The translations under genes were made by a program, and so were the position numbers. This document shows positions 1-5,605 of a DNA stretch of 5,605 bases, in pieces. Under the pieces are notes generated by a model. It ran no database searches. It saw only the letters and a list, made by a program, of their open reading frames with translations, and was not told where the DNA came from. The stretch is from a virus (lineage: Duplodnaviria; Heunggongvirae; Uroviricota; Caudoviricetes): the IMG/VR virus record IMGVR_UViG_2711768053_000011, positions 1 to 5,605 of that record, one strand, 5' to 3'. How positions within the stretch are numbered: position 1 is the stretch's first letter; every line of letters begins with the position of its first letter.

Positions 1-356
1 GCTTCCGCGCTCTGCTGCGCCTGCGCCACCATTTCCTCAAAGCGTTTCACTACATCCGGCTTTAAATCGCCTTCATCAAGGGCAGTCAGAAAGTCGTTCA
101 GCGTGCCGGGCTTTGAGTCGTCGTAAACAGCAATGTCGCCAACACAGTACTCGTCGCGCCAGTCCTGTTTCAGATATACGCAATATTTTCCGGTCTGCGC
201 CTTAAAACAGTACTCGCCACAGTTTCCTGTCACCACGTCGGCAACTGTGCGCATCACCACTTCTGAGGTGTTTACCCGGGATTTCAGAATTATGTGGCAT
301 CCGGACATGGGGATGCCTGCGCCATCAATCAGCGCACCTGATATCACTACAGACAT
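1..356 (-). CDS. Side tail fibre protein, N-terminal part (lambda Stf / Rac StfR-like 'prophage tail fibre N-terminal' domain); 3' end cut off by the window start
   Basis: Not in the supplied ORF track because it runs off the window. Hand translation from ATG at 354-356 gives MSVVISGALIDGAGIPMSGCHIILKSRVNTSEVVMRTVADVVTGNCGEYCFKAQTGKYCVYLKQDWRDEYCVGDIAVYDDSKPGTLNDFLTALDEGDLKPDVVKRFEEMVAQAQQSAE, open to position 3. It aligns residue for residue with the lambda Stf N-terminus as I recall it (ISG.L.DG.G.P...C.I.LK.R.N.S.VV..TV....G.Y....G.Y.V.L....G.I.VY.DS.PGTLNDFL.A..E.D..P.V..R.E.MV). An in-frame TAA at 375-377 makes this the first start; the upstream Shine-Dalgarno is weak (GAGA). Confidence 0.7.
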   Translation of the reverse strand, partial: MSVVISGALIDGAGIPMSGCHIILKSRVNTSEVVMRTVADVVTGNCGEYCFKAQTGKYCVYLKQDWRDEYCVGDIAVYDDSKPGTLNDFLTALDEGDLKPDVVKRFEEMVAQAQQSAE

Positions 357-379
357 AGTTTTTCTCGCGATAAATTAAA

Positions 380-910
380 TCAGGAAGAGGCTTCCGGAGA
401 GACGGGCCATTCAATGGCGTTATATGAGGTTTTATCAGTGATAATGTTGAAATCCATCGCCTGTAACTCCTTTGCGTAAATACGCCAGGCTTTCAGCTTT
501 TCTTTTTCTTCATCGCTGATGATTCCCAGAAGTAAATCCGTCTTCTTATCGGATATTTCCCGTTCGGCAATCGCAGTAAGACGTGCACGCTCCGACTCTG
601 CCTGCAGCCTGTAGTCAACAGGGACCGGCAGTACTTCACCGTCTTTGTAATACCAGCGCGCTTCTATACAAAAGTCATCCGGTAGTTCATCCACTTCCAC
701 AATGGTAAAACCAACGGGATAAAGACGGGATACATCTTCCGCCATGGAATAAATAACGCCGGTTTCAGGATGCGTGCACAGTTTGTATTTCTTTGTGAAT
801 TTATCCAGTGAGTCGTAAAAATCCTGTCCGTCTTCACTGCGGAAATACTGAACACCTTCACCATAAGGCATGTTTTCCGGGTAATAACGCGTGACATTTC
901 TGAGTTCCAT
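380..910 (-). CDS. Tail fibre assembly chaperone (Tfa; P2 gpG / Mu U / lambda Tfa family)
   Basis: 176 aa from ATG at 908-910 (MELRNVTRYYPENMPYGEGVQYF...). The C-terminus KLKAWRIYAKELQAMDFNIITDKTSYNAIEWPVSPE fits the conserved Tfa C-terminal pattern (W..Y...L...D.......I.WP..P). It sits immediately downstream of the tail fibre gene and has a strong AAGGAG Shine-Dalgarno 6 nt upstream. The longer track ORF starting at 946 would overlap the tail fibre gene and lacks an SD. Confidence 0.85.
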   Translation of the reverse strand: MELRNVTRYYPENMPYGEGVQYFRSEDGQDFYDSLDKFTKKYKLCTHPETGVIYSMAEDVSRLYPVGFTIVEVDELPDDFCIEARWYYKDGEVLPVPVDYRLQAESERARLTAIAEREISDKKTDLLLGIISDEEKEKLKAWRIYAKELQAMDFNIITDKTSYNAIEWPVSPEASS

Positions 911-916
911 TATTTT

Positions 917-922
917 CTCCTT
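917..922 (-). promoter_or_regulatory. Shine-Dalgarno (AAGGAG) for the tail fibre assembly gene, in the 14-nt gap between the tail fibre stop (925-927) and the ATG at 910
   Basis: Minus-strand sequence TAA-TTAAGGAGAAAATA-ATG read directly from 908-927. Confidence 0.7.
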
Positions 923-924
923 AA

Positions 925-1962
925 TTAACCTGATACGGATCGCCATGCACCATTAATATAAATCTGAGCCTGTTTGTAATACACGCCACCGATATTATCT
1001 GCAGAGTTACTGCCAGTGTCCTGAACATTAATGCCTGACAAAACACAACCAGAAGGTGCCCGAAACGTCCAGCTGCGCTCATTCCCACCAGGGTTGTAAA
1101 ACACCTCACTGGTGTACTGAAAATTCTGCACACCGCCTGTTCTGGTCTGGTAGCGTTCATCGAAATTGCCATAATCAGTTGGTGTTACCCTCCCTGAAAC
1201 ATTCACTGCCCGGTGACTTTGTAACGCCCCATTCTGAAAACGGAATACGTGCTGACCATTGGCATAAACATCCAGCAGGCCATCACCATTCTGTTTCAGG
1301 CCGGTATCGTTATCCCCGAAAGCAATTGAGTTTCCGCCCAGCGCGTTCTGAACGCCGATACCCAGCGCACCATTGACCTGAGAACCGCCGCCAACAGACA
1401 CTTTATGCGACATGGATATTTCACCCGTCCGCAGATTAATAGTGAACGGTCGAAGTGGACCAATATCGCCATTCTCGCCCTGACCTTCACTGGTAGGGAT
1501 AAGGTGCAGGCACTCTTCCGAACGACGAAAAATCAGACCAAAGGCTTCGTTGAAAATCCTCAGCGCATTAACACCACGGATTTTCAGTTCCCCGGTCATG
1601 GTGTCGCCATCACGCTGAACGGCATTTTTTGCCTTGTCCACCGTGGGTTTCAATCCGAGGTTTTCAACAGCCTCATCCTTATCTTCCACATCCGAAAGGT
1701 TATTTTTTATCAGCAATGCCTCTTCGTTAATTGCACCACCCACCAGTAATAATATGGCTTTATATAGCTGATCGTGTTCTTCTTTATTCAGTTCTATCCC
1801 GGCCTTCTCAATGACACCACAGATTTCCTCCTGAATGGCATCCCACATGGCACTGTTCAGCCAGGTGGCAAGACGTCCTGTGCGAAGATTTCCATCAGTA
1901 AATCCGTTCTTGCCCGGGCCAAACTTATCTTTTACCGCTGTCAGCGTATCAATCCTGTGCAT
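925..1962 (-). CDS. Tail fibre protein (Mu S / P2 gpH-like, with a P2 gpH-type C-terminal receptor-binding region)
   Basis: 345-347 aa. The C-terminal part (NALGGNSIAFGDNDTGLKQNGDGLLDVYANGQHVFRFQNG ... IYINGAWRSVSG) closely matches the P2 gpH C-terminus as I recall it (ALGGSSIVLGDNDTGFKQNGDGILDVYANSQRVFRFQNG ... KYINGTWYNV). The N-terminus (FGPGKNGFTDGNLRTGRLATW...AGIELNKEEHDQLYKAI) resembles Mu/e14-type fibre N-termini. Two in-frame ATGs lie at 1968 and 1962; the one at 1962 has GAGG 6 nt upstream (1969-1972) and is preferred. It overlaps the upstream gene by about 14 nt. Confidence 0.85.
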   Translation of the reverse strand: MHRIDTLTAVKDKFGPGKNGFTDGNLRTGRLATWLNSAMWDAIQEEICGVIEKAGIELNKEEHDQLYKAILLLVGGAINEEALLIKNNLSDVEDKDEAVENLGLKPTVDKAKNAVQRDGDTMTGELKIRGVNALRIFNEAFGLIFRRSEECLHLIPTSEGQGENGDIGPLRPFTINLRTGEISMSHKVSVGGGSQVNGALGIGVQNALGGNSIAFGDNDTGLKQNGDGLLDVYANGQHVFRFQNGALQSHRAVNVSGRVTPTDYGNFDERYQTRTGGVQNFQYTSEVFYNPGGNERSWTFRAPSGCVLSGINVQDTGSNSADNIGGVYYKQAQIYINGAWRSVSG

Positions 1963-2539
1963 CTTCATCCTCGTCTGGATAGGAAAATAAAACGACGGTG
2001 TGTGACGGACATAATTTATTAATCACGCACTCCGCAATCGTATCGCCCCACGTCCGGATCGGTGTGTTACAGGCATCCGTACATGTCTGCCACTGCGCGC
2101 CAGCATCCACTGGTAACGTCACACGCCAGAAATAACGCCAGCGATCTCCCCATTCCGGATCAGGGCTTGCATCCAGGTGCTGGAACTGTTCGATCGTCAC
2201 GCCGGTATATCCCAGCGCCTCAAGCTGATCCAGGAAGAACTGCTCATTTATGCCACCAGCCACATTGGCTTTTGCTTCAAGACGTTGCTGACGCTGGCGT
2301 AATGTCTGGGTTCCGACAGGGGAACAGGAATCAGGTAAACCATACAATTCTTCATAACGTTCAATCAGCTCTGTGGACTGACCGGGATCGATTTCAATCA
2401 CCAGTTCATCAGCCCGCTGGTGAACACGCACAAGCGATGGTGCCAGACCGTCAAGCACACCGTCGGTATCTGACCATGCAGGTCCCGGCGGCATCAGGCC
2501 ATACAACAATTTTGTATAATCATCCTGTAACGTATCCAT
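1949..2539 (-). CDS. Baseplate/tail protein of the DUF2313 family (YmfQ-like; Mu gp48 / P2 gpI position)
   Basis: 196 aa (MDTLQDDYTKLLYGLMPPGPAWSD...), with size and N-terminal pattern typical of YmfQ/DUF2313 proteins and placed between the J-like gene and the tail fibre gene. Its ATG at 2537-2539 overlaps the upstream stop (TAATG), and AAGGAG lies 6 nt upstream (2546-2551). Confidence 0.8.
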   Translation of the reverse strand: MDTLQDDYTKLLYGLMPPGPAWSDTDGVLDGLAPSLVRVHQRADELVIEIDPGQSTELIERYEELYGLPDSCSPVGTQTLRQRQQRLEAKANVAGGINEQFFLDQLEALGYTGVTIEQFQHLDASPDPEWGDRWRYFWRVTLPVDAGAQWQTCTDACNTPIRTWGDTIAECVINKLCPSHTVVLFSYPDEDEDAQD

Positions 2540-3621
2540 TATTTACTCCTTACCGGGTCATAAGCCTGCCATGTGATCTCCCCGAGTACCGGAAGCTCTG
2601 TTTCCCCCAGGTCAATATCCGATGAAGGGTCGATGAGTCGATGGGCCACCTCGCCTGCAGATAAACTGATAGCCTCGCTGATCCTGGACAGATACATGCG
2701 CCCTTCCGGCACACCATCCCGGAACATCAGCGCATTCAGTTCTGATTTTATTGCCGCCCTGATCTGCGGTGTGTCTTTCGATAACGCAATCGTCATCGGA
2801 ATGACTTTTTCTGTGGCACCGAATACATACAATCCGCTTCCGGCAACAGGTGCCAGAGGAAGGATGTGGTCCCTGACTGCGTTAATCACGCTTTCATCCG
2901 GGGCCGGGTGTTCCGGATCGTTTGTCGCCACCATCACGCCAACCGTTCCAATCCCTTTCCAGTGTCTGAAAGTCCATGCACGGTTAATACCCTGAACTTC
3001 TTTCGCCCAGATAACATAATCAGGGTCTGCGCCCCCCTGTGGAATGTAGTAATAACGTTCCATAACGCGGGCACGCCATATTTCCAGATTTTCAATATCT
3101 TCACCGTCTGTAATGGTGTCTGCGTACCCTGTGGACGGCAGACCACTGACGGGTGTTCCCAGCTGCATGGCAATACCATCATCCGTATTCCCCGCCGATC
3201 CCGGTTCGTCTGCCACAACAGGCACCCGGAGAAGACCATCGGCTGCGGTCACCGTCGCCGTCGTGGTGAAGGTCACCTGATCATCACGCTGGATCTGCGT
3301 TCCCGCTGGCAATACCGGCGTCCCCTCTACGCCATCCCAGCGCACAAATCCCCGGGCTGCCACCGCATCTTTTCGCGGGCAGCGTTTGATTCTGGCGTGC
3401 CGGTACAGCCAGTCTTCATCACACATGTCCGGCAACAGATTTCTGGCAAGATAATCGATATACCCGTACAACGTGTGTACGGCTGCAGCCTGTACACGGG
3501 CATACACTTCCGCATCCATACGACGAAGCAGCGTATCCTGCTCAAAGCGGGTTAATAAATCGCTCCGGATCATAGAAATAAGTTGCGGGAGGCCGGGGCG
3601 ATAAAACTGACTGTCAGCCAT
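2539..3621 (-). CDS. Baseplate J-like protein (Mu gp47 / P2 gpJ family)
   Basis: 360 aa, of the expected size and position between the GP46-like and DUF2313 genes. GGAG lies 8 nt upstream of the ATG (3630-3633). The start overlaps the upstream stop by 8 nt (ATGGCTGA). Confidence 0.8.
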   Translation of the reverse strand: MADSQFYRPGLPQLISMIRSDLLTRFEQDTLLRRMDAEVYARVQAAAVHTLYGYIDYLARNLLPDMCDEDWLYRHARIKRCPRKDAVAARGFVRWDGVEGTPVLPAGTQIQRDDQVTFTTTATVTAADGLLRVPVVADEPGSAGNTDDGIAMQLGTPVSGLPSTGYADTITDGEDIENLEIWRARVMERYYYIPQGGADPDYVIWAKEVQGINRAWTFRHWKGIGTVGVMVATNDPEHPAPDESVINAVRDHILPLAPVAGSGLYVFGATEKVIPMTIALSKDTPQIRAAIKSELNALMFRDGVPEGRMYLSRISEAISLSAGEVAHRLIDPSSDIDLGETELPVLGEITWQAYDPVRSK

Positions 3622-4027
3622 TCAGTTCACTCCAGATATCATCAAAAATAATGTTGTGAATATTGCCGTCACGCTGGTAAATGGTAATGGCAAGTGCCAG
3701 CGAGTCTGTCCCGGTCCTGACAGCGTTAATATCAAGACGGGAAGCAGCACCATCCTCCACCATCCACGCCAGCGCTTCACGGGCATAATCTCTGGCAAGC
3801 TGCGGGGTTTTATTTGTCAGCTTGCTGCGTCGCAACAGATACAGACGCGACCCCGTGCGATCATTCTGAACCGCAGGCCAGGTATCCCCCCACCATCCAA
3901 ATATCTGCGGTGCATCATCATCACGCCCTGCACGCCGCCAGGTAAAAAGCGAAATAATCACAGCACGCGTCAGAAGGTCGAGCGAAGCCCCGGTCGACAC
4001 GGTTCGCCCGTTAACATTAATCATCAT
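3614..4027 (-). CDS. Phage GP46-family baseplate protein (Mu gp46-like, small gp25/W-like wedge protein)
   Basis: 137 aa containing the GWWGD and GSRLYLL motifs that I recall as characteristic of the Phage_GP46 family, and located between the V and J genes. There are tandem ATGs at 4027 and 4024; no strong SD is present, so translational coupling to V is likely (the V stop is 5 nt upstream). Confidence 0.8.
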   Translation of the reverse strand: MMINVNGRTVSTGASLDLLTRAVIISLFTWRRAGRDDDAPQIFGWWGDTWPAVQNDRTGSRLYLLRRSKLTNKTPQLARDYAREALAWMVEDGAASRLDINAVRTGTDSLALAITIYQRDGNIHNIIFDDIWSELNG

Positions 4028-4032
4028 GATTT

Positions 4033-4566
4033 TCAGCCCATCGGTTGATCTGGCGTGTCAGTGATCCCACCACCATCACCATTTTCGGTGTGTTTGTGGG
4101 CATTGTAGGTCTGCCGCATTTGCTGCATGCTGAGTCCGCCACTGTCGCAATTGTCAGTAATATCAGCGGTGGATTCGACAGGCATTTCAAAGCGCGCTTT
4201 AGGCGCGTTTTGAAAAATAATGGGCTTCCCGCCCCCGTTCACCACAATGCCGGAACGAGTCAGGACAACGGATTGCCCCTGATCGTCATAAAGCGCCACT
4301 TCCCCACGTTTCAGTCCTTTCAACCGGTAACGTCTGTCAGCCACGACCACAACCACACCATGCGAACGATCGCCCGCCGGGAATAAAGCAACGCCCTCAG
4401 CACCGTTCTGTGCGGCAGATGTAAAACCATAAGGTTCAAGGTGCTCAACGTGTTGTTTCTGATCTCCGGCTATCATTTTCAACCCTACAGACTGACACTT
4501 TCTGGCGGAATCCACCGCCGTGATGACAGCCCGGGAAATCAGATTGCGAAGAGAAAACCCGTTCAT
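4033..4566 (-). CDS. Baseplate assembly protein V / central spike (Mu gp45 / P2 gpV family)
   Basis: 177 aa with N-terminal RAVITAVD, a GVALFPAGDRSHGVVV OB-fold-like core and a C-terminal H-K-H ... GDGGG apex motif typical of gpV-type spikes. A strong GAGGAGG Shine-Dalgarno lies 7 nt upstream, and the ATG overlaps the hub stop (TGATG). Confidence 0.85.
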   Translation of the reverse strand: MNGFSLRNLISRAVITAVDSARKCQSVGLKMIAGDQKQHVEHLEPYGFTSAAQNGAEGVALFPAGDRSHGVVVVVADRRYRLKGLKRGEVALYDDQGQSVVLTRSGIVVNGGGKPIIFQNAPKARFEMPVESTADITDNCDSGGLSMQQMRQTYNAHKHTENGDGGGITDTPDQPMG

Positions 4567-5447
4567 CAGAAATCCTCCTCAACATTTTTTTTCTTCCTGG
4601 CGGTAACAGGCTCGGGGAGATAAGCATCTGCCGGGCCAACCCGTAATTCAGTCGTCGTGCCCCGGTCGTCCTGGTTATAGGTGACTTCTGCGATCACCAG
4701 TTCATCATTATCAAAATTATTCAGCGGGTCGAAAACGATGACAGATAACCCCGGACGCCATAACGCGCCACTGCCCTGCCGCCAGCCCTGAACTGTATAT
4801 GTTGTCTCACGGGTAAGTGCAGCCCGTTGGCGCGCTTCAAATTCACAACGGGCCTTACAGGTTGCTGTCGTTGCTGTGCCTGACTGCTGAATCAACAAAG
4901 GGCGATAACGGGTCACACCACTGTCCTGAATAGTCTGTCGTATTGCGGCAATGGTGGCCTCACCAAAATCATCGTCGTTGCCCGGTCGCTGCCCACTGAC
5001 CTGATATTCAGAAAACCGCTCTCTGATGCTTCTTTCCGTGTCACAGGAAAGAATATTCTCTCCCAGAACCAGCGCCGTCGCCGCTTTACCTGTTCCGGGT
5101 TTTCCCAGAACCAGTCGCCCGCATTCATCGTCATAAGCCAGCGTCTGAACCTGCCCCAGTAACCGGTTAAGACAATCGGCAACGGTTTCGCCGTGTTCCG
5201 GCTGGGCATCAATCACCGCTGTCTGCGGCACGCCAGCATCAACAACGGTGATGCCAAATGGCGCAGCCAGTTCACTGACTATTCTGAGCAGGTTTTTTCC
5301 GCTCTGCTGGAGTGGCAAAGCAGAGCAGTCAACCAGATCGGCTGTTTTGCTTCGCCCGACAATCCCCATGCTGACGCTGCTGGCGTCATAACGAAGCGGT
5401 AACGCCTCCACATATCCGGTGAGCACGGGCTCATCCCCGATAAGCAC
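4566..5447 (-). CDS. Baseplate hub-like protein (Mu gp44 / P2 gpD-like position); 5' boundary uncertain, frame open up to 5570
   Basis: 293 aa if started at GTG 5445-5447 (the track start). Its position directly upstream of V matches Mu gp44. The same frame stays open 41 codons further upstream (PLSVLVRVINRIARDFNVAITTRWPGSRDYQPRIKNGELVEV) with no ATG, GTG or TTG, up to an in-frame TGA at 5571-5573. The family assignment rests on gene order and loose similarity only. Confidence 0.55.
   Translation of the reverse strand: MLIGDEPVLTGYVEALPLRYDASSVSMGIVGRSKTADLVDCSALPLQQSGKNLLRIVSELAAPFGITVVDAGVPQTAVIDAQPEHGETVADCLNRLLGQVQTLAYDDECGRLVLGKPGTGKAATALVLGENILSCDTERSIRERFSEYQVSGQRPGNDDDFGEATIAAIRQTIQDSGVTRYRPLLIQQSGTATTATCKARCEFEARQRAALTRETTYTVQGWRQGSGALWRPGLSVIVFDPLNNFDNDELVIAEVTYNQDDRGTTTELRVGPADAYLPEPVTARKKKNVEEDF
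4574..4580 (-). promoter_or_regulatory. Shine-Dalgarno (GAGGAGG) for the V gene, embedded in the 3' end of the hub gene
   Basis: Minus-strand sequence GTTGAGGAGGATTTCTGATG read directly; spacing to the ATG is 7 nt. Confidence 0.7.
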
Positions 5448-5605
5448 TTCAACCAGCTCACCATTTTTTATCCGGGGTTGATAATCCCGGCTTCCGGGCC
5501 AGCGGGTGGTAATGGCGACATTAAAATCCCGGGCAATACGGTTAATGACCCGAACTAAAACGGACAGAGGTCACGCCGACCCATTAGCTAACGACAACCG
5601 CAACA

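What the first reader, a model, noticed from the sequence alone, without database searches (positions are those of the whole stretch)
1..379. Second, lambdoid Stf-type tail fibre gene in tandem behind the Mu/P2-type fibre and its chaperone
Immediately after the Tfa stop (380-382), on the same strand, a new gene starts at 356 whose first ~118 residues align closely with the N-terminal anchor domain of lambda Stf / Rac StfR. It is co-directional with the fibre and chaperone genes, so it is not the inverted alternative cassette of a Gin/Pin-type invertible segment. It therefore looks like an independent second fibre carrying its own attachment domain. A myophage-type baseplate followed by a P2 gpH-like fibre, a Tfa and then an Stf-type fibre suggests a phage carrying two different receptor-binding fibres, or a recombination junction between fibre modules. 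Either bears on host range. The receptor-binding end of this gene lies outside the window.
Basis: partly seen in the sequence, partly recalled or inferred. Interest (0 to 1): 0.5.

Follow-up and report, generated by a model that had tools for sequence, protein, structure and literature searches.

The report
Second, Stf-type tail fibre gene
The window ends inside a real second tail-fibre gene with a lambda Stf-type anchor, already annotated in Shiga-toxin phage phiP27 (gene L56); the same anchor occurs unchanged on several unrelated phage tails, so where it attaches to a contractile tail is an open question.

Summary
On the minus strand, 23 nt after the Tfa stop (380-382), an ATG at 356 opens 118 codons that run off the sequence. 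They match Pfam PF08400 (E 3.7e-60) and are 44% identical to lambda Stf. The window is a whole 5,605-bp draft contig, so the rest of the gene lies elsewhere in that assembly.

The window is 97% identical to Stx2e phage phiP27. There the gene is L56 (490 aa, "putative tail fiber"), followed by a DUF4376 chaperone-type gene (L57) and attR, with no invertase. The feature is therefore already known by annotation.

What this work adds: the block of fibre-1 tip, Tfa, Stf-type fibre and DUF4376 gene occurs on at least four unrelated tails. These are phiP27 (Mu-type baseplate), Rac-SA53-type, P2-type and lambda-type. Anchor sequences identical over their first 100 residues are shared by the three contractile-tail types. 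The anchor of fibre 1 is specific to each tail type. The Stf-type anchor is under purifying selection (median dN/dS 0.11).

Its two solved relatives dock on rings around the tail axis: lambda Stf at the tube/tip junction, and Vibrio myophage XM1 gp40 at the neck. The docking site on a sheathed tail is unresolved. I lean slightly towards the neck, but this is inference.

The parts
84..356 (-). Second fibre gene, codons 1-91: Stf-type anchor (collar) domain, a six-stranded beta-sandwich plus a short helix
   Evidence: ATG at 356. PF08400 E 3.7e-60. AF2 model has strands 2-8, 20-29, 33-42, 48-54, 56-64, 70-77 and helix 86-91. Foldseek gives 9e7m Ur-lambda StfN at E 3e-8 (TM 0.87) and 7kjk XM1 gp40 NTD at E 9e-8. 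Lambda domain limits are taken from PMC12617516.
54..83 (-). Codons 92-101: predicted flexible linker (TALDEGDLKP)
   Evidence: By alignment to lambda Stf linker residues 92-101. pLDDT is lower here. The motif is invariant in alignment A1.
1..53 (-). Codons 102-118 plus 2 nt: start of the predicted trimeric coiled-coil shaft; the gene is cut by the contig end
   Evidence: Helix 103-116 in the model. Lambda's coiled coil starts at residue 102. Relatives continue with an Ala/Gln-rich shaft. The contig end is shown.
357..379 (-). 23-nt spacer between Tfa and the second fibre, with a weak GAG ribosome-binding motif; no convincing promoter or terminator, so co-transcription is likely
   Evidence: Sequence. 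The same short spacing (previous gene's match ends ~24-27 nt upstream) holds in most of the 80 related loci. The promoter/terminator scan gives nothing above chance.
380..946 (-). Tail fibre assembly protein (Tfa) of fibre 1; the annotated start is probably at 910 (176 aa)
   Evidence: PF02413 Caudo_TAP E 2.9e-21. phrog_136 E 1e-55. The exact 176-aa protein is found in other genomes on Rac-SA53-type and P2-type tails.
925..1968 (-). Fibre 1: Mu gpS-like baseplate fibre with a tail-specific N-terminus (about residues 1-115) and an exchangeable distal part
   Evidence: PDB 5yvq/9ki1 Mu tail fiber protein S, E 1.4e-16. phrog_6859. Only residues ~117-347 are shared with Rac-SA53 tail1, and residues 52-346 with a P2-type fibre.
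533..1122 (.). Segment with no nucleotide match to phiP27: a swapped fibre-1 tip plus Tfa N-terminal part; lower G+C (0.44-0.47)
   Evidence: blastn of the window against phiP27 gives 92% over 1-532 and 97.6% over 1123-5599, with nothing between. Composition.
1949..5605 (-). Mu-type baseplate genes: gp48/YmfQ (1949-2539), baseplate J (2539-3621), GP46 (3614-4027), gp45/V spike (4033-4566), gp44-like hub (4566-5605, cut by the contig end)
   Evidence: Pfam PF10076, PF04865, PF07409, PF06890, PF22255/PF21929. Colinear with phiP27 L49-L53.

Best explanation
Positions 1-356 (minus strand) encode the first 118 residues of a second tail-fibre gene, the orthologue of phiP27 L56. Residues 1-91 form a lambda Stf-type anchor (collar) domain, 92-101 a linker, and 102 onward the start of a trimeric coiled-coil shaft. 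In close relatives the gene continues to 420-1,047 aa with a fibre-type distal end, and a DUF4376 (Mu-U/Tfa-type) chaperone gene follows it. It is the third gene of a four-gene host-range block: fibre-1 distal part, Tfa, second fibre, DUF4376 chaperone. This block sits at the end of the late operon and moves by recombination between unrelated tails. The likely function is inferred. The phage would carry two receptor-binding proteins. The Mu gpS-type baseplate fibre would trigger contraction. An accessory Stf-type fibre would speed up or broaden first contact, as Stf does for Ur-lambda. The anchor probably assembles as a ring of N-domains around a hexameric, tube-like part of the virion with few specific contacts, which would explain its portability. 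On a sheathed tail the lambda site is buried. The neck, where the homologous anchor of myophage XM1 gp40 sits, is the best-precedented site, but a site at the baseplate is not excluded. Shown here: gene identity, fold, synteny, absence of an inversion system, spread across tail types, and purifying selection. Inferred: incorporation into the virion, receptor binding, and the docking site.
For: Identity and fold: PF08400 E 3.7e-60; 44% identity to lambda Stf, E 1e-30; AF2 model plus Foldseek hits to 9e7m and 7kjk only at E < 1e-3; profile search of PDB gives 9e7m 8e-40 and 7kjk 7.5e-5. Orthology and synteny: the window is 97% identical to phiP27, where the order is L54 fibre, L55 Tfa, L56 fibre (490 aa, PF08400), L57 (DUF4376), then attR. 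E. coli STEC276 and A8 have the same layout. DUF4376 proteins are fibre chaperones according to PMC7882524 and PMC10579305. Portability: phiP27 and Rac-SA53 share no structural protein by BLASTP except fibre-1 distal part, Tfa, fibre 2 and DUF4376. Of 80 IMG/VR loci, 41 are Rac-SA53-type, 16 phiP27-type, 7 P2-type, 3 lambda-type, 1 DUF3383-type and 12 unclassified. Anchor variants identical over 100 aa occur on phiP27 + Rac-SA53 and on phiP27 + P2 + Rac-SA53 tails. The exact window Tfa is followed by a PF08400 fibre and a DUF4376 gene on Rac-SA53-type and P2-type tails. Function retained: median dN/dS 0.106 over 1,218 pairs for the first 100 codons. Docking precedents: 12 lambda StfN copies form a collar at the gpV/gpM junction with only a few loop contacts; six trimers of XM1 gp40 bind the neck proteins gp4 and gp5.
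Against: No experiment or structure shows this protein in a phiP27-type virion. This copy is cut by the contig end, so its intactness is unknown. About a dozen of the 80 related loci carry truncated copies of 113-304 aa, including 2 of the 3 lambda-type loci. Some phiP27-type prophages have lost the gene. So it is dispensable at least in decaying prophages. XM1 gp40 is a remote relative only: PF08400 scores 18.4 bits, below the 26.6 cut-off. phiP27 neck proteins L42 and L43 show no sequence similarity to any solved structure. A fibre at the neck is less obviously useful for adsorption than one at the baseplate.
Confidence: 0.72

Rival explanations
1. The second fibre is a baseplate fibre. Its Stf-type anchor docks at or just above the baseplate, next to fibre 1, so the baseplate carries two sets of fibres.
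For: The gene lies in the baseplate/fibre gene cluster, directly after fibre 1 and Tfa. [quoted passage not shown] A distal position suits receptor binding best.
Against: Identical anchors occur on Mu-type, P2-type and Rac-SA53-type tails, whose baseplate proteins are not detectably similar. The N-terminus of fibre 1, which does dock on the baseplate, differs with each tail type. On a sheathed tail the tube/distal-ring junction used in lambda is covered. The only solved contractile-tail homologue sits at the neck.
Confidence: 0.3
2. Branched fibre: the anchor docks on something encoded in the same block, either the shaft of fibre 1 or a Tfa retained on it. That would be why the block can move between tails.
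For: The anchor always travels with a fibre-1 distal part and a Tfa gene. The spacer is short and near-constant in most of the 80 loci. TfaMu is reported to stay bound to the Mu fibre (PMC7882524).
Against: Loci L059-L063 have an unrelated fibre-1 distal part and a lambda-type Tfa, only ~29% identical over its last 70 aa, yet carry an anchor 81-87% identical to the window's. Both solved homologues bind rings around the tail axis, not fibres.
Confidence: 0.1
3. Passenger or remnant: the gene is carried along with the fibre-1 tip/Tfa swap and is not assembled into phiP27-type virions. In this genome it may be only a short remnant.
For: This copy is cut by the contig end. Truncated copies are common. 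Related prophages have deleted it, leaving only its first ~14 codons.
Against: Purifying selection on the anchor is strong (median dN/dS 0.106, all pairs < 0.5). Intact genes of 420-1,047 aa with their own chaperone gene are present in most loci of every contractile-tail type. The nearest colinear relative, STEC276 (95.7% identity over the whole window), has an intact 490-aa gene.
Confidence: 0.1
4. Alternative cassette of a Gin/Pin-type invertible host-range switch, as in Mu, P1 and e14.
For: Related Mu-type baseplate prophages such as e14 do use such a switch: stfP-tfaP / tfaE-stfE-pinE.
Against: The gene is co-directional and has its own start codon and anchor. phiP27, STEC276 and A8 have no invertase. 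Only 1 of 80 loci has a pin-like gene within 10 kb. The window has no crossover-type inverted repeats.
Confidence: 0.01

Closest known systems
Phage phiP27 L56 (NP_543108 / CAC83574), with L54-L57, in the Stx2e-converting phage genome (AJ298298, NC_003356)
   Same: The first 118 residues differ at one position (K/R at residue 82). Gene order is the same: Mu-type baseplate, fibre, Tfa, PF08400 fibre, DUF4376 protein, attR. The window is 97% identical at nucleotide level over 89% of its length.
   Different: The window carries a different fibre-1 tip and Tfa N-part (533-1122 has no match). The C-terminal part of the window's gene is unknown.
Lambda side tail fibre Stf (orf-401/orf-314; Ur-lambda structure 9E7M/9MGH)
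   Same: Same Pfam family and fold for the N-terminal anchor, then a linker, then a coiled coil. A downstream chaperone gene is present. Stf has an accessory adsorption role.
   Different: Only 44% identical. Lambda is a siphophage, and its collar wraps the exposed gpV/gpM junction, which is not exposed on a sheathed tail. Lambda's chaperone is Caudo_TAP type, here it is DUF4376 type. In lambda Stf is the only side fibre, here the gene follows another fibre and its Tfa.
Vibrio myophage XM1 gp40 collar spike (PDB 7KJK)
   Same: Homologous N-terminal beta-sandwich followed by a long coiled coil, on a contractile-tailed phage that also has separate baseplate receptor-binding proteins.
   Different: A remote relative: 24% identity, below the PF08400 cut-off. 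Its C-terminus is a tailspike rather than a fibre. It is encoded away from the baseplate genes. Its neck location is shown for XM1 only.
Mu G segment / e14 P segment (S-U / S'-U' with Gin or Pin)
   Same: Mu-type baseplate, Mu gpS-like first fibre, and a second set of fibre and chaperone genes that extends host range.
   Different: No inversion system. The second fibre is a complete, co-directional gene with its own anchor, so both fibres can be made at once rather than alternately.
T5 p132 / DT57C LtfC collar with pb1 / LtfAB fibres
   Same: A dodecameric ring around the tail that anchors side fibres, as compared in PMC12617516.
   Different: In T5 the collar is a separate protein and the phage is a siphophage. 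No sequence relation was tested here.

Membership tests
PF08400 / lambda Stf-type N-terminal anchor (collar) domain | Sequence matches the family model above its curated threshold | tested here: met
   202 bits against a cut-off of 26.6, E 3.7e-60, residues 1-117 on profile positions 1-117.
PF08400 / lambda Stf-type N-terminal anchor (collar) domain | Six-stranded antiparallel beta-sandwich followed by a short alpha-helix at the extreme N-terminus | tested here: met
   AF2 model, pLDDT 79, six strands plus helix 86-91. Foldseek to 9e7m gives E 3e-8 and TM 0.87 on the target.
PF08400 / lambda Stf-type N-terminal anchor (collar) domain | Flexible linker, then a trimeric coiled-coil shaft and a distal receptor-binding part | tested here: inconclusive
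   The linker motif and helix 103-116 are present. The shaft and tip lie beyond the contig end. Relatives have them.
PF08400 / lambda Stf-type N-terminal anchor (collar) domain | Twelve copies form a collar at the tail tube (gpV) / gpM junction | not testable with these tools
   This needs a multimer prediction or cryo-EM. The tail here has a sheath and a Mu-type baseplate, so the lambda site is not exposed.
PF08400 / lambda Stf-type N-terminal anchor (collar) domain | A dedicated chaperone gene immediately downstream | tested here: met
   Met in relatives only: a DUF4376 protein follows in phiP27, STEC276, A8 and most IMG/VR loci. That region lies outside this window.
Gin/Pin invertible tail-fibre segment (Mu, P1, e14) | The alternative fibre end and tfa lie in inverted orientation to the expressed set | tested here: not met
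   All genes are on the same strand.
Gin/Pin invertible tail-fibre segment (Mu, P1, e14) | A serine invertase gene next to the segment | tested here: not met
   None in phiP27, STEC276 or A8. tblastn with K-12 PinE finds 1 of 80 loci, 7.6 kb away. The window itself ends too early to test this.
Gin/Pin invertible tail-fibre segment (Mu, P1, e14) | Inverted-repeat crossover sites flanking the segment | tested here: not met
   Only 15-20-nt imperfect inverted pairs, with none bracketing the fibre/Tfa genes in a meaningful way.
XM1 gp40-type neck collar spike | Homologous N-terminal Ig/transthyretin-like domain followed by a coiled coil | tested here: met
   phmmer gives 3.7e-6 with full-length L56. 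The profile search gives 7.5e-5. Foldseek gives 9e-8. The relation is at superfamily level only: gp40 scores 18.4 bits on PF08400, below the cut-off.
XM1 gp40-type neck collar spike | Binds the head-completion and tail-terminator rings at the neck | not testable with these tools
   phiP27 neck proteins L42 and L43 have no sequence match to any solved chain. No multimer modelling was available.
XM1 gp40-type neck collar spike | C-terminal tailspike (Det7 gp208-like) domain | tested here: not met
   Relatives carry PF03406 Phage_fiber_2 fibre repeats or no Pfam domain, not a tailspike.

The most novel reading that the evidence does not exclude
The phiP27-type Stf anchor is a tail-independent 'universal' fibre adaptor. 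A ring of N-domains would clamp around any tube-fold hexamer stack with minimal sequence-specific contact. One ready-made fibre plus chaperone block could then be added to Mu-type, P2-type, Rac-SA53-type and lambda-type virions. On contractile tails it would sit at the neck, giving these temperate myophages previously unrecognised receptor-binding neck fibres.
Probability: 0.3. Interest if true: 0.6.

Novelty: already known. Interest (0 to 1): 0.33.

Why it matters
As an annotation, it matters little. The gene is phiP27 L56, and NCBI's pipeline already labels its homologues 'prophage tail fiber N-terminal domain-containing protein'.

The wider pattern is more useful. It is a self-contained second-fibre block whose anchor does not need adapting to the tail it joins. 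If that holds experimentally, it would explain how Stx- and LT-II-converting and other E. coli prophages exchange host range across unrelated virion types. It would also offer a portable anchor for engineering receptor-binding proteins onto phages or tailocins.

There is a practical point too. The conserved anchor is a multi-copy repeat that breaks short-read assemblies exactly here. That is why this contig, and many database entries for this protein, end inside the gene.

Tried and rejected
- **phiP27 genome paper:** The original paper (PMC127862) is not held, so its own comments on L54-L57 and on virion morphology could not be read.
- **Literature searches:** Searches for PF08400, Rac-SA53 and 'prophage tail fiber N-terminal' found nothing on contractile-tail docking.
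- **Neck proteins:** phiP27 L42 and L43 were searched against solved structures to link them to XM1 gp4/gp5, with no hits.
- **Branched-fibre idea:** It was weakened by loci where the fibre-1 tip and Tfa are of another type but the anchor is nearly the same.
- **Invertible-segment idea:** Rejected.
- **Hairpin at 383-395:** It overlaps the Tfa stop and is terminator-like, but such sites are no more frequent than in shuffled sequence.
- **Disintegrin hits:** These PDB hits (E 0.004-1) come from the five non-conserved cysteines in the domain and are spurious.
- **Extending the window:** The exact-protein look-up showed the window is the whole contig.
- **Broad homologue search:** The protein database search returned mostly contig-end fragments and gave no architectures.

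Full report
**1. What is in the window**

All genes lie on the minus strand. The gene order is listed here.
- A Mu gp44-like hub gene, cut by the sequence end (4566-5605).
- gp45/V spike (4033-4566).
- GP46 (3614-4027).
- Baseplate J (2539-3621).
- Mu gp48/YmfQ (1949-2539).
- A 347-aa fibre (925-1968).
- A Caudo_TAP tail fibre assembly protein (380-946).

The fibre is Mu gpS-like: PDB 5yvq/9ki1 at E 1.4e-16 and phrog_6859.

The Tfa stop is at 380-382. After a 23-nt spacer, an ATG at 356 opens 118 codons with no stop up to position 1.

**2. Check of the observation**

- The 118 residues match PF08400 (prophage tail fibre N-terminal) at E 3.7e-60 over the whole fragment.
- They align without gaps to lambda orf-401/Stf at 44% identity, E 1e-30.
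- They match the solved Ur-lambda Stf collar domain at E 2e-18.
- An AlphaFold2 model (pLDDT 79) shows six strands, a short helix at 86-91, a weaker linker, and a helix from 103. That is the layout described for lambda StfN, its linker and the start of its coiled coil (PMC12617516).
- Foldseek against the PDB gives only two matches below E 1e-3: Ur-lambda StfN (3e-8) and the N-terminal domain of Vibrio myophage XM1 gp40 (9e-8).

**3. Where the sequence comes from and what follows the gene**

The window is 97% identical to Stx2e-converting phage phiP27 over 89% of its length. In phiP27 the gene is L56, 490 aa, annotated 'putative tail fiber protein'. It is followed by L57 (188 aa), L58 and attR. 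L56 has PF08400 at its N-terminus and L57 is a DUF4376 protein.

DUF4376 is the domain of Mu-U/Tfa-type fibre chaperones, according to PMC7882524 and PMC10579305. So a second chaperone-type gene does follow.

E. coli prophages in STEC276 (95.7% identical and colinear over the whole window) and in strain A8 show the same layout. Their genes are intact at 490 and 473 aa, and no invertase is present.

The window is a complete draft contig: CXXT01000096.1 of GCA_001268445.1, 5,605 bp. The rest of this copy is on another contig, and its intactness cannot be shown here.

The arrangement is not an inversion switch.
- The gene is co-directional and has its own start and anchor.
- Only 1 of 80 related loci has a pin-like gene within 10 kb, and that one is 7.6 kb away.
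- The window has no meaningful inverted repeats.

**4. A recombination junction is present too**

Against phiP27, window 1-532 is 92% identical and 1123-5599 is 97.6% identical. Positions 533-1122 have no match. That stretch covers the Tfa N-terminal part and the last ~66 residues of fibre 1. It also has lower G+C. This is a swap of fibre tip plus chaperone.

**5. The block is portable**

phiP27 and the LT-II prophage Rac-SA53 were compared protein by protein. Rac-SA53 is a different myophage: it has a sheath (phrog_205) and a baseplate J protein. The two phages share only four things:
- the fibre-1 distal part;
- Tfa;
- fibre 2 (N-terminus 82% identical over residues 1-192, C-terminus 89%);
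- the DUF4376 protein (91%).

No head, neck, sheath, tube or baseplate protein is similar.

Eighty IMG/VR loci encode an anchor 79-100% identical to the window's. I classified their tails by similarity to reference proteins and by Pfam.

| Tail type | Loci |
|---|---|
| Rac-SA53-type | 41 |
| phiP27-type | 16 |
| P2-type (sheath, FII tube, GPD, gpW, J, Tail_P2_I, PF12571 fibre) | 7 |
| Lambda-type siphophage (J, lom and a lambda-type Stf upstream) | 3 |
| DUF3383-type | 1 |
| Unclassified | 12 |

In nearly all of these loci the gene follows a Tfa gene after a short, near-constant spacer, and a DUF4376 gene follows it. Intact lengths range from 421 to 1,047 aa. About a dozen copies are truncated.

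The exact 176-aa Tfa of the window also occurs on Rac-SA53-type and P2-type tails in other genomes. Each time it is followed by a PF08400 + Phage_fiber_2 fibre and a DUF4376 protein.

**6. The anchor is not adapted to the tail**

Anchor variants identical over their first 100 residues are shared by phiP27 + Rac-SA53 tails, and by phiP27 + P2 + Rac-SA53 tails. Lambda-type loci carry variants 86-90% identical to the window's.

Fibre 1 behaves differently. Its N-terminus is specific to each tail type: Mu S-type here, PF12571 on P2-type, a different one on Rac-SA53, and lambda-type StfN on lambda-type tails. Only its distal part is shared.

The anchor is under purifying selection. Median dN/dS is 0.106 over 1,218 pairs, and every pair is below 0.5. 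It is therefore a working domain, not drift.

**7. How it probably works**

Inferred by analogy with lambda: the fibre is a trimer with three anchor domains on flexible linkers, a coiled-coil shaft, and a distal tip folded with help from the DUF4376 protein. It probably serves as an accessory adsorption fibre beside the Mu S-type baseplate fibre.

The open point is where it docks.
- In Ur-lambda, 12 anchors form a closed collar around the gpV/gpM junction. Only a few contacts are made, through the beta4-beta5 loop.
- On a sheathed tail that junction is covered.
- The only solved homologue on a contractile tail is XM1 gp40. Six trimers sit at the neck on the head-completion and tail-terminator rings.
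- The homology to gp40 is real but remote. phmmer with full-length L56 gives 3.7e-6, the profile search gives 7.5e-5, and Foldseek gives 9e-8. gp40 scores below the PF08400 cut-off.

A ring held mainly by its own closure around a tube-fold hexamer stack would explain why one anchor serves unrelated tails. It points to the neck on myophages, but I rate this only slightly above a baseplate-proximal site.

Docking on fibre 1 or on Tfa is less likely. Loci with an unrelated fibre-1 tip and a lambda-type Tfa keep almost the same anchor. I could not test docking directly. No multimer modelling was available, and phiP27 neck proteins have no solved relatives by sequence.

**8. Comparison with what is known, and novelty**

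The feature is the L56 orthologue of a phage whose deposited GenBank and RefSeq records already annotate it as a tail fibre protein. NCBI's pipeline routinely annotates its homologues. As a finding it is already known.

In the literature I could search, I found no description of two things: the sharing of an unchanged Stf-type anchor across tail types, and the question of where it sits on a sheathed tail. That library is incomplete.

**9. Verdict**

- The feature is ordinary as an annotation.
- It carries a moderately interesting, testable side question about a portable fibre anchor.

Noticed in passing
window 1-5605: The window is an entire draft-assembly contig (CXXT01000096.1, GCA_001268445.1). 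Both ends break inside genes: the second fibre at position 1 and the gp44-like hub at 5605. Many database homologues of the anchor are also contig-end fragments, and some complete E. coli genomes hold up to 8 matching places. The conserved anchor therefore seems to act as an assembly-breaking repeat.
   Followed up: partly
window 533-1122: This segment has no nucleotide match in phiP27 while both flanks match at 92-98%. It covers the fibre-1 tip and the Tfa N-terminal part and has lower G+C, which indicates a specificity swap. The exact Tfa protein recurs on Rac-SA53-type and P2-type tails.
   Followed up: yes
L050, L079, L089 (IMG/VR loci); probably L086: These lambda-type siphophage loci carry two PF08400 fibres in tandem. 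The order is J, lom, lambda-type Stf, Tfa, phiP27-type Stf-like fibre, DUF4376 gene. The second fibre is intact in L050 (590 aa) and truncated in L079 and L089. How two anchor subtypes would share one collar site is unexplained.
   Followed up: partly
alignment A1 (P0085, P0089, P0091): These anchor domains are mosaic: a lambda-type beta-sandwich (residues ~1-80) joined to the phiP27-type helix, linker and coiled-coil start. The stretch GTLNDFL..DEGDLKPDVVKRFEE is invariant across the set and may be a recombination hotspot.
   Followed up: no
window 84-356, minus strand (residues 20, 46, 50, 59, 72): The anchor contains five cysteines. They are not conserved among close relatives and produce spurious weak hits to snake-venom disintegrins in the PDB search.
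   Followed up: partly
window 383-395, minus strand: A short GC-rich hairpin (GGAAG-CCT-CTTCC) followed by TGATTTAATT overlaps the last Tfa codons and the stop. It is terminator-like, but such sites are no more frequent than in shuffled sequence. It could modestly lower read-through into the second fibre.
   Followed up: no
PP818812.1 (Actinobacillus phage vB_Apl-pPE4), 42019-43755: A phage recorded as infecting Actinobacillus pleuropneumoniae carries a fibre module 94% identical at nucleotide level to this E. coli prophage module, with a 100% identical anchor. This suggests either a very recent transfer or a questionable host assignment.
   Followed up: no
L007 (E. coli 10035776-3, NZ_CP159170.1) 5883-6066: Some phiP27-type prophages have deleted the second fibre. 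Similarity to the window starts at position 315, so only the first ~14 codons remain, joined to a DUF4376 C-terminal remnant next to tRNA-Ser. Their baseplate gp48 gene is also a pseudogene.
   Followed up: partly
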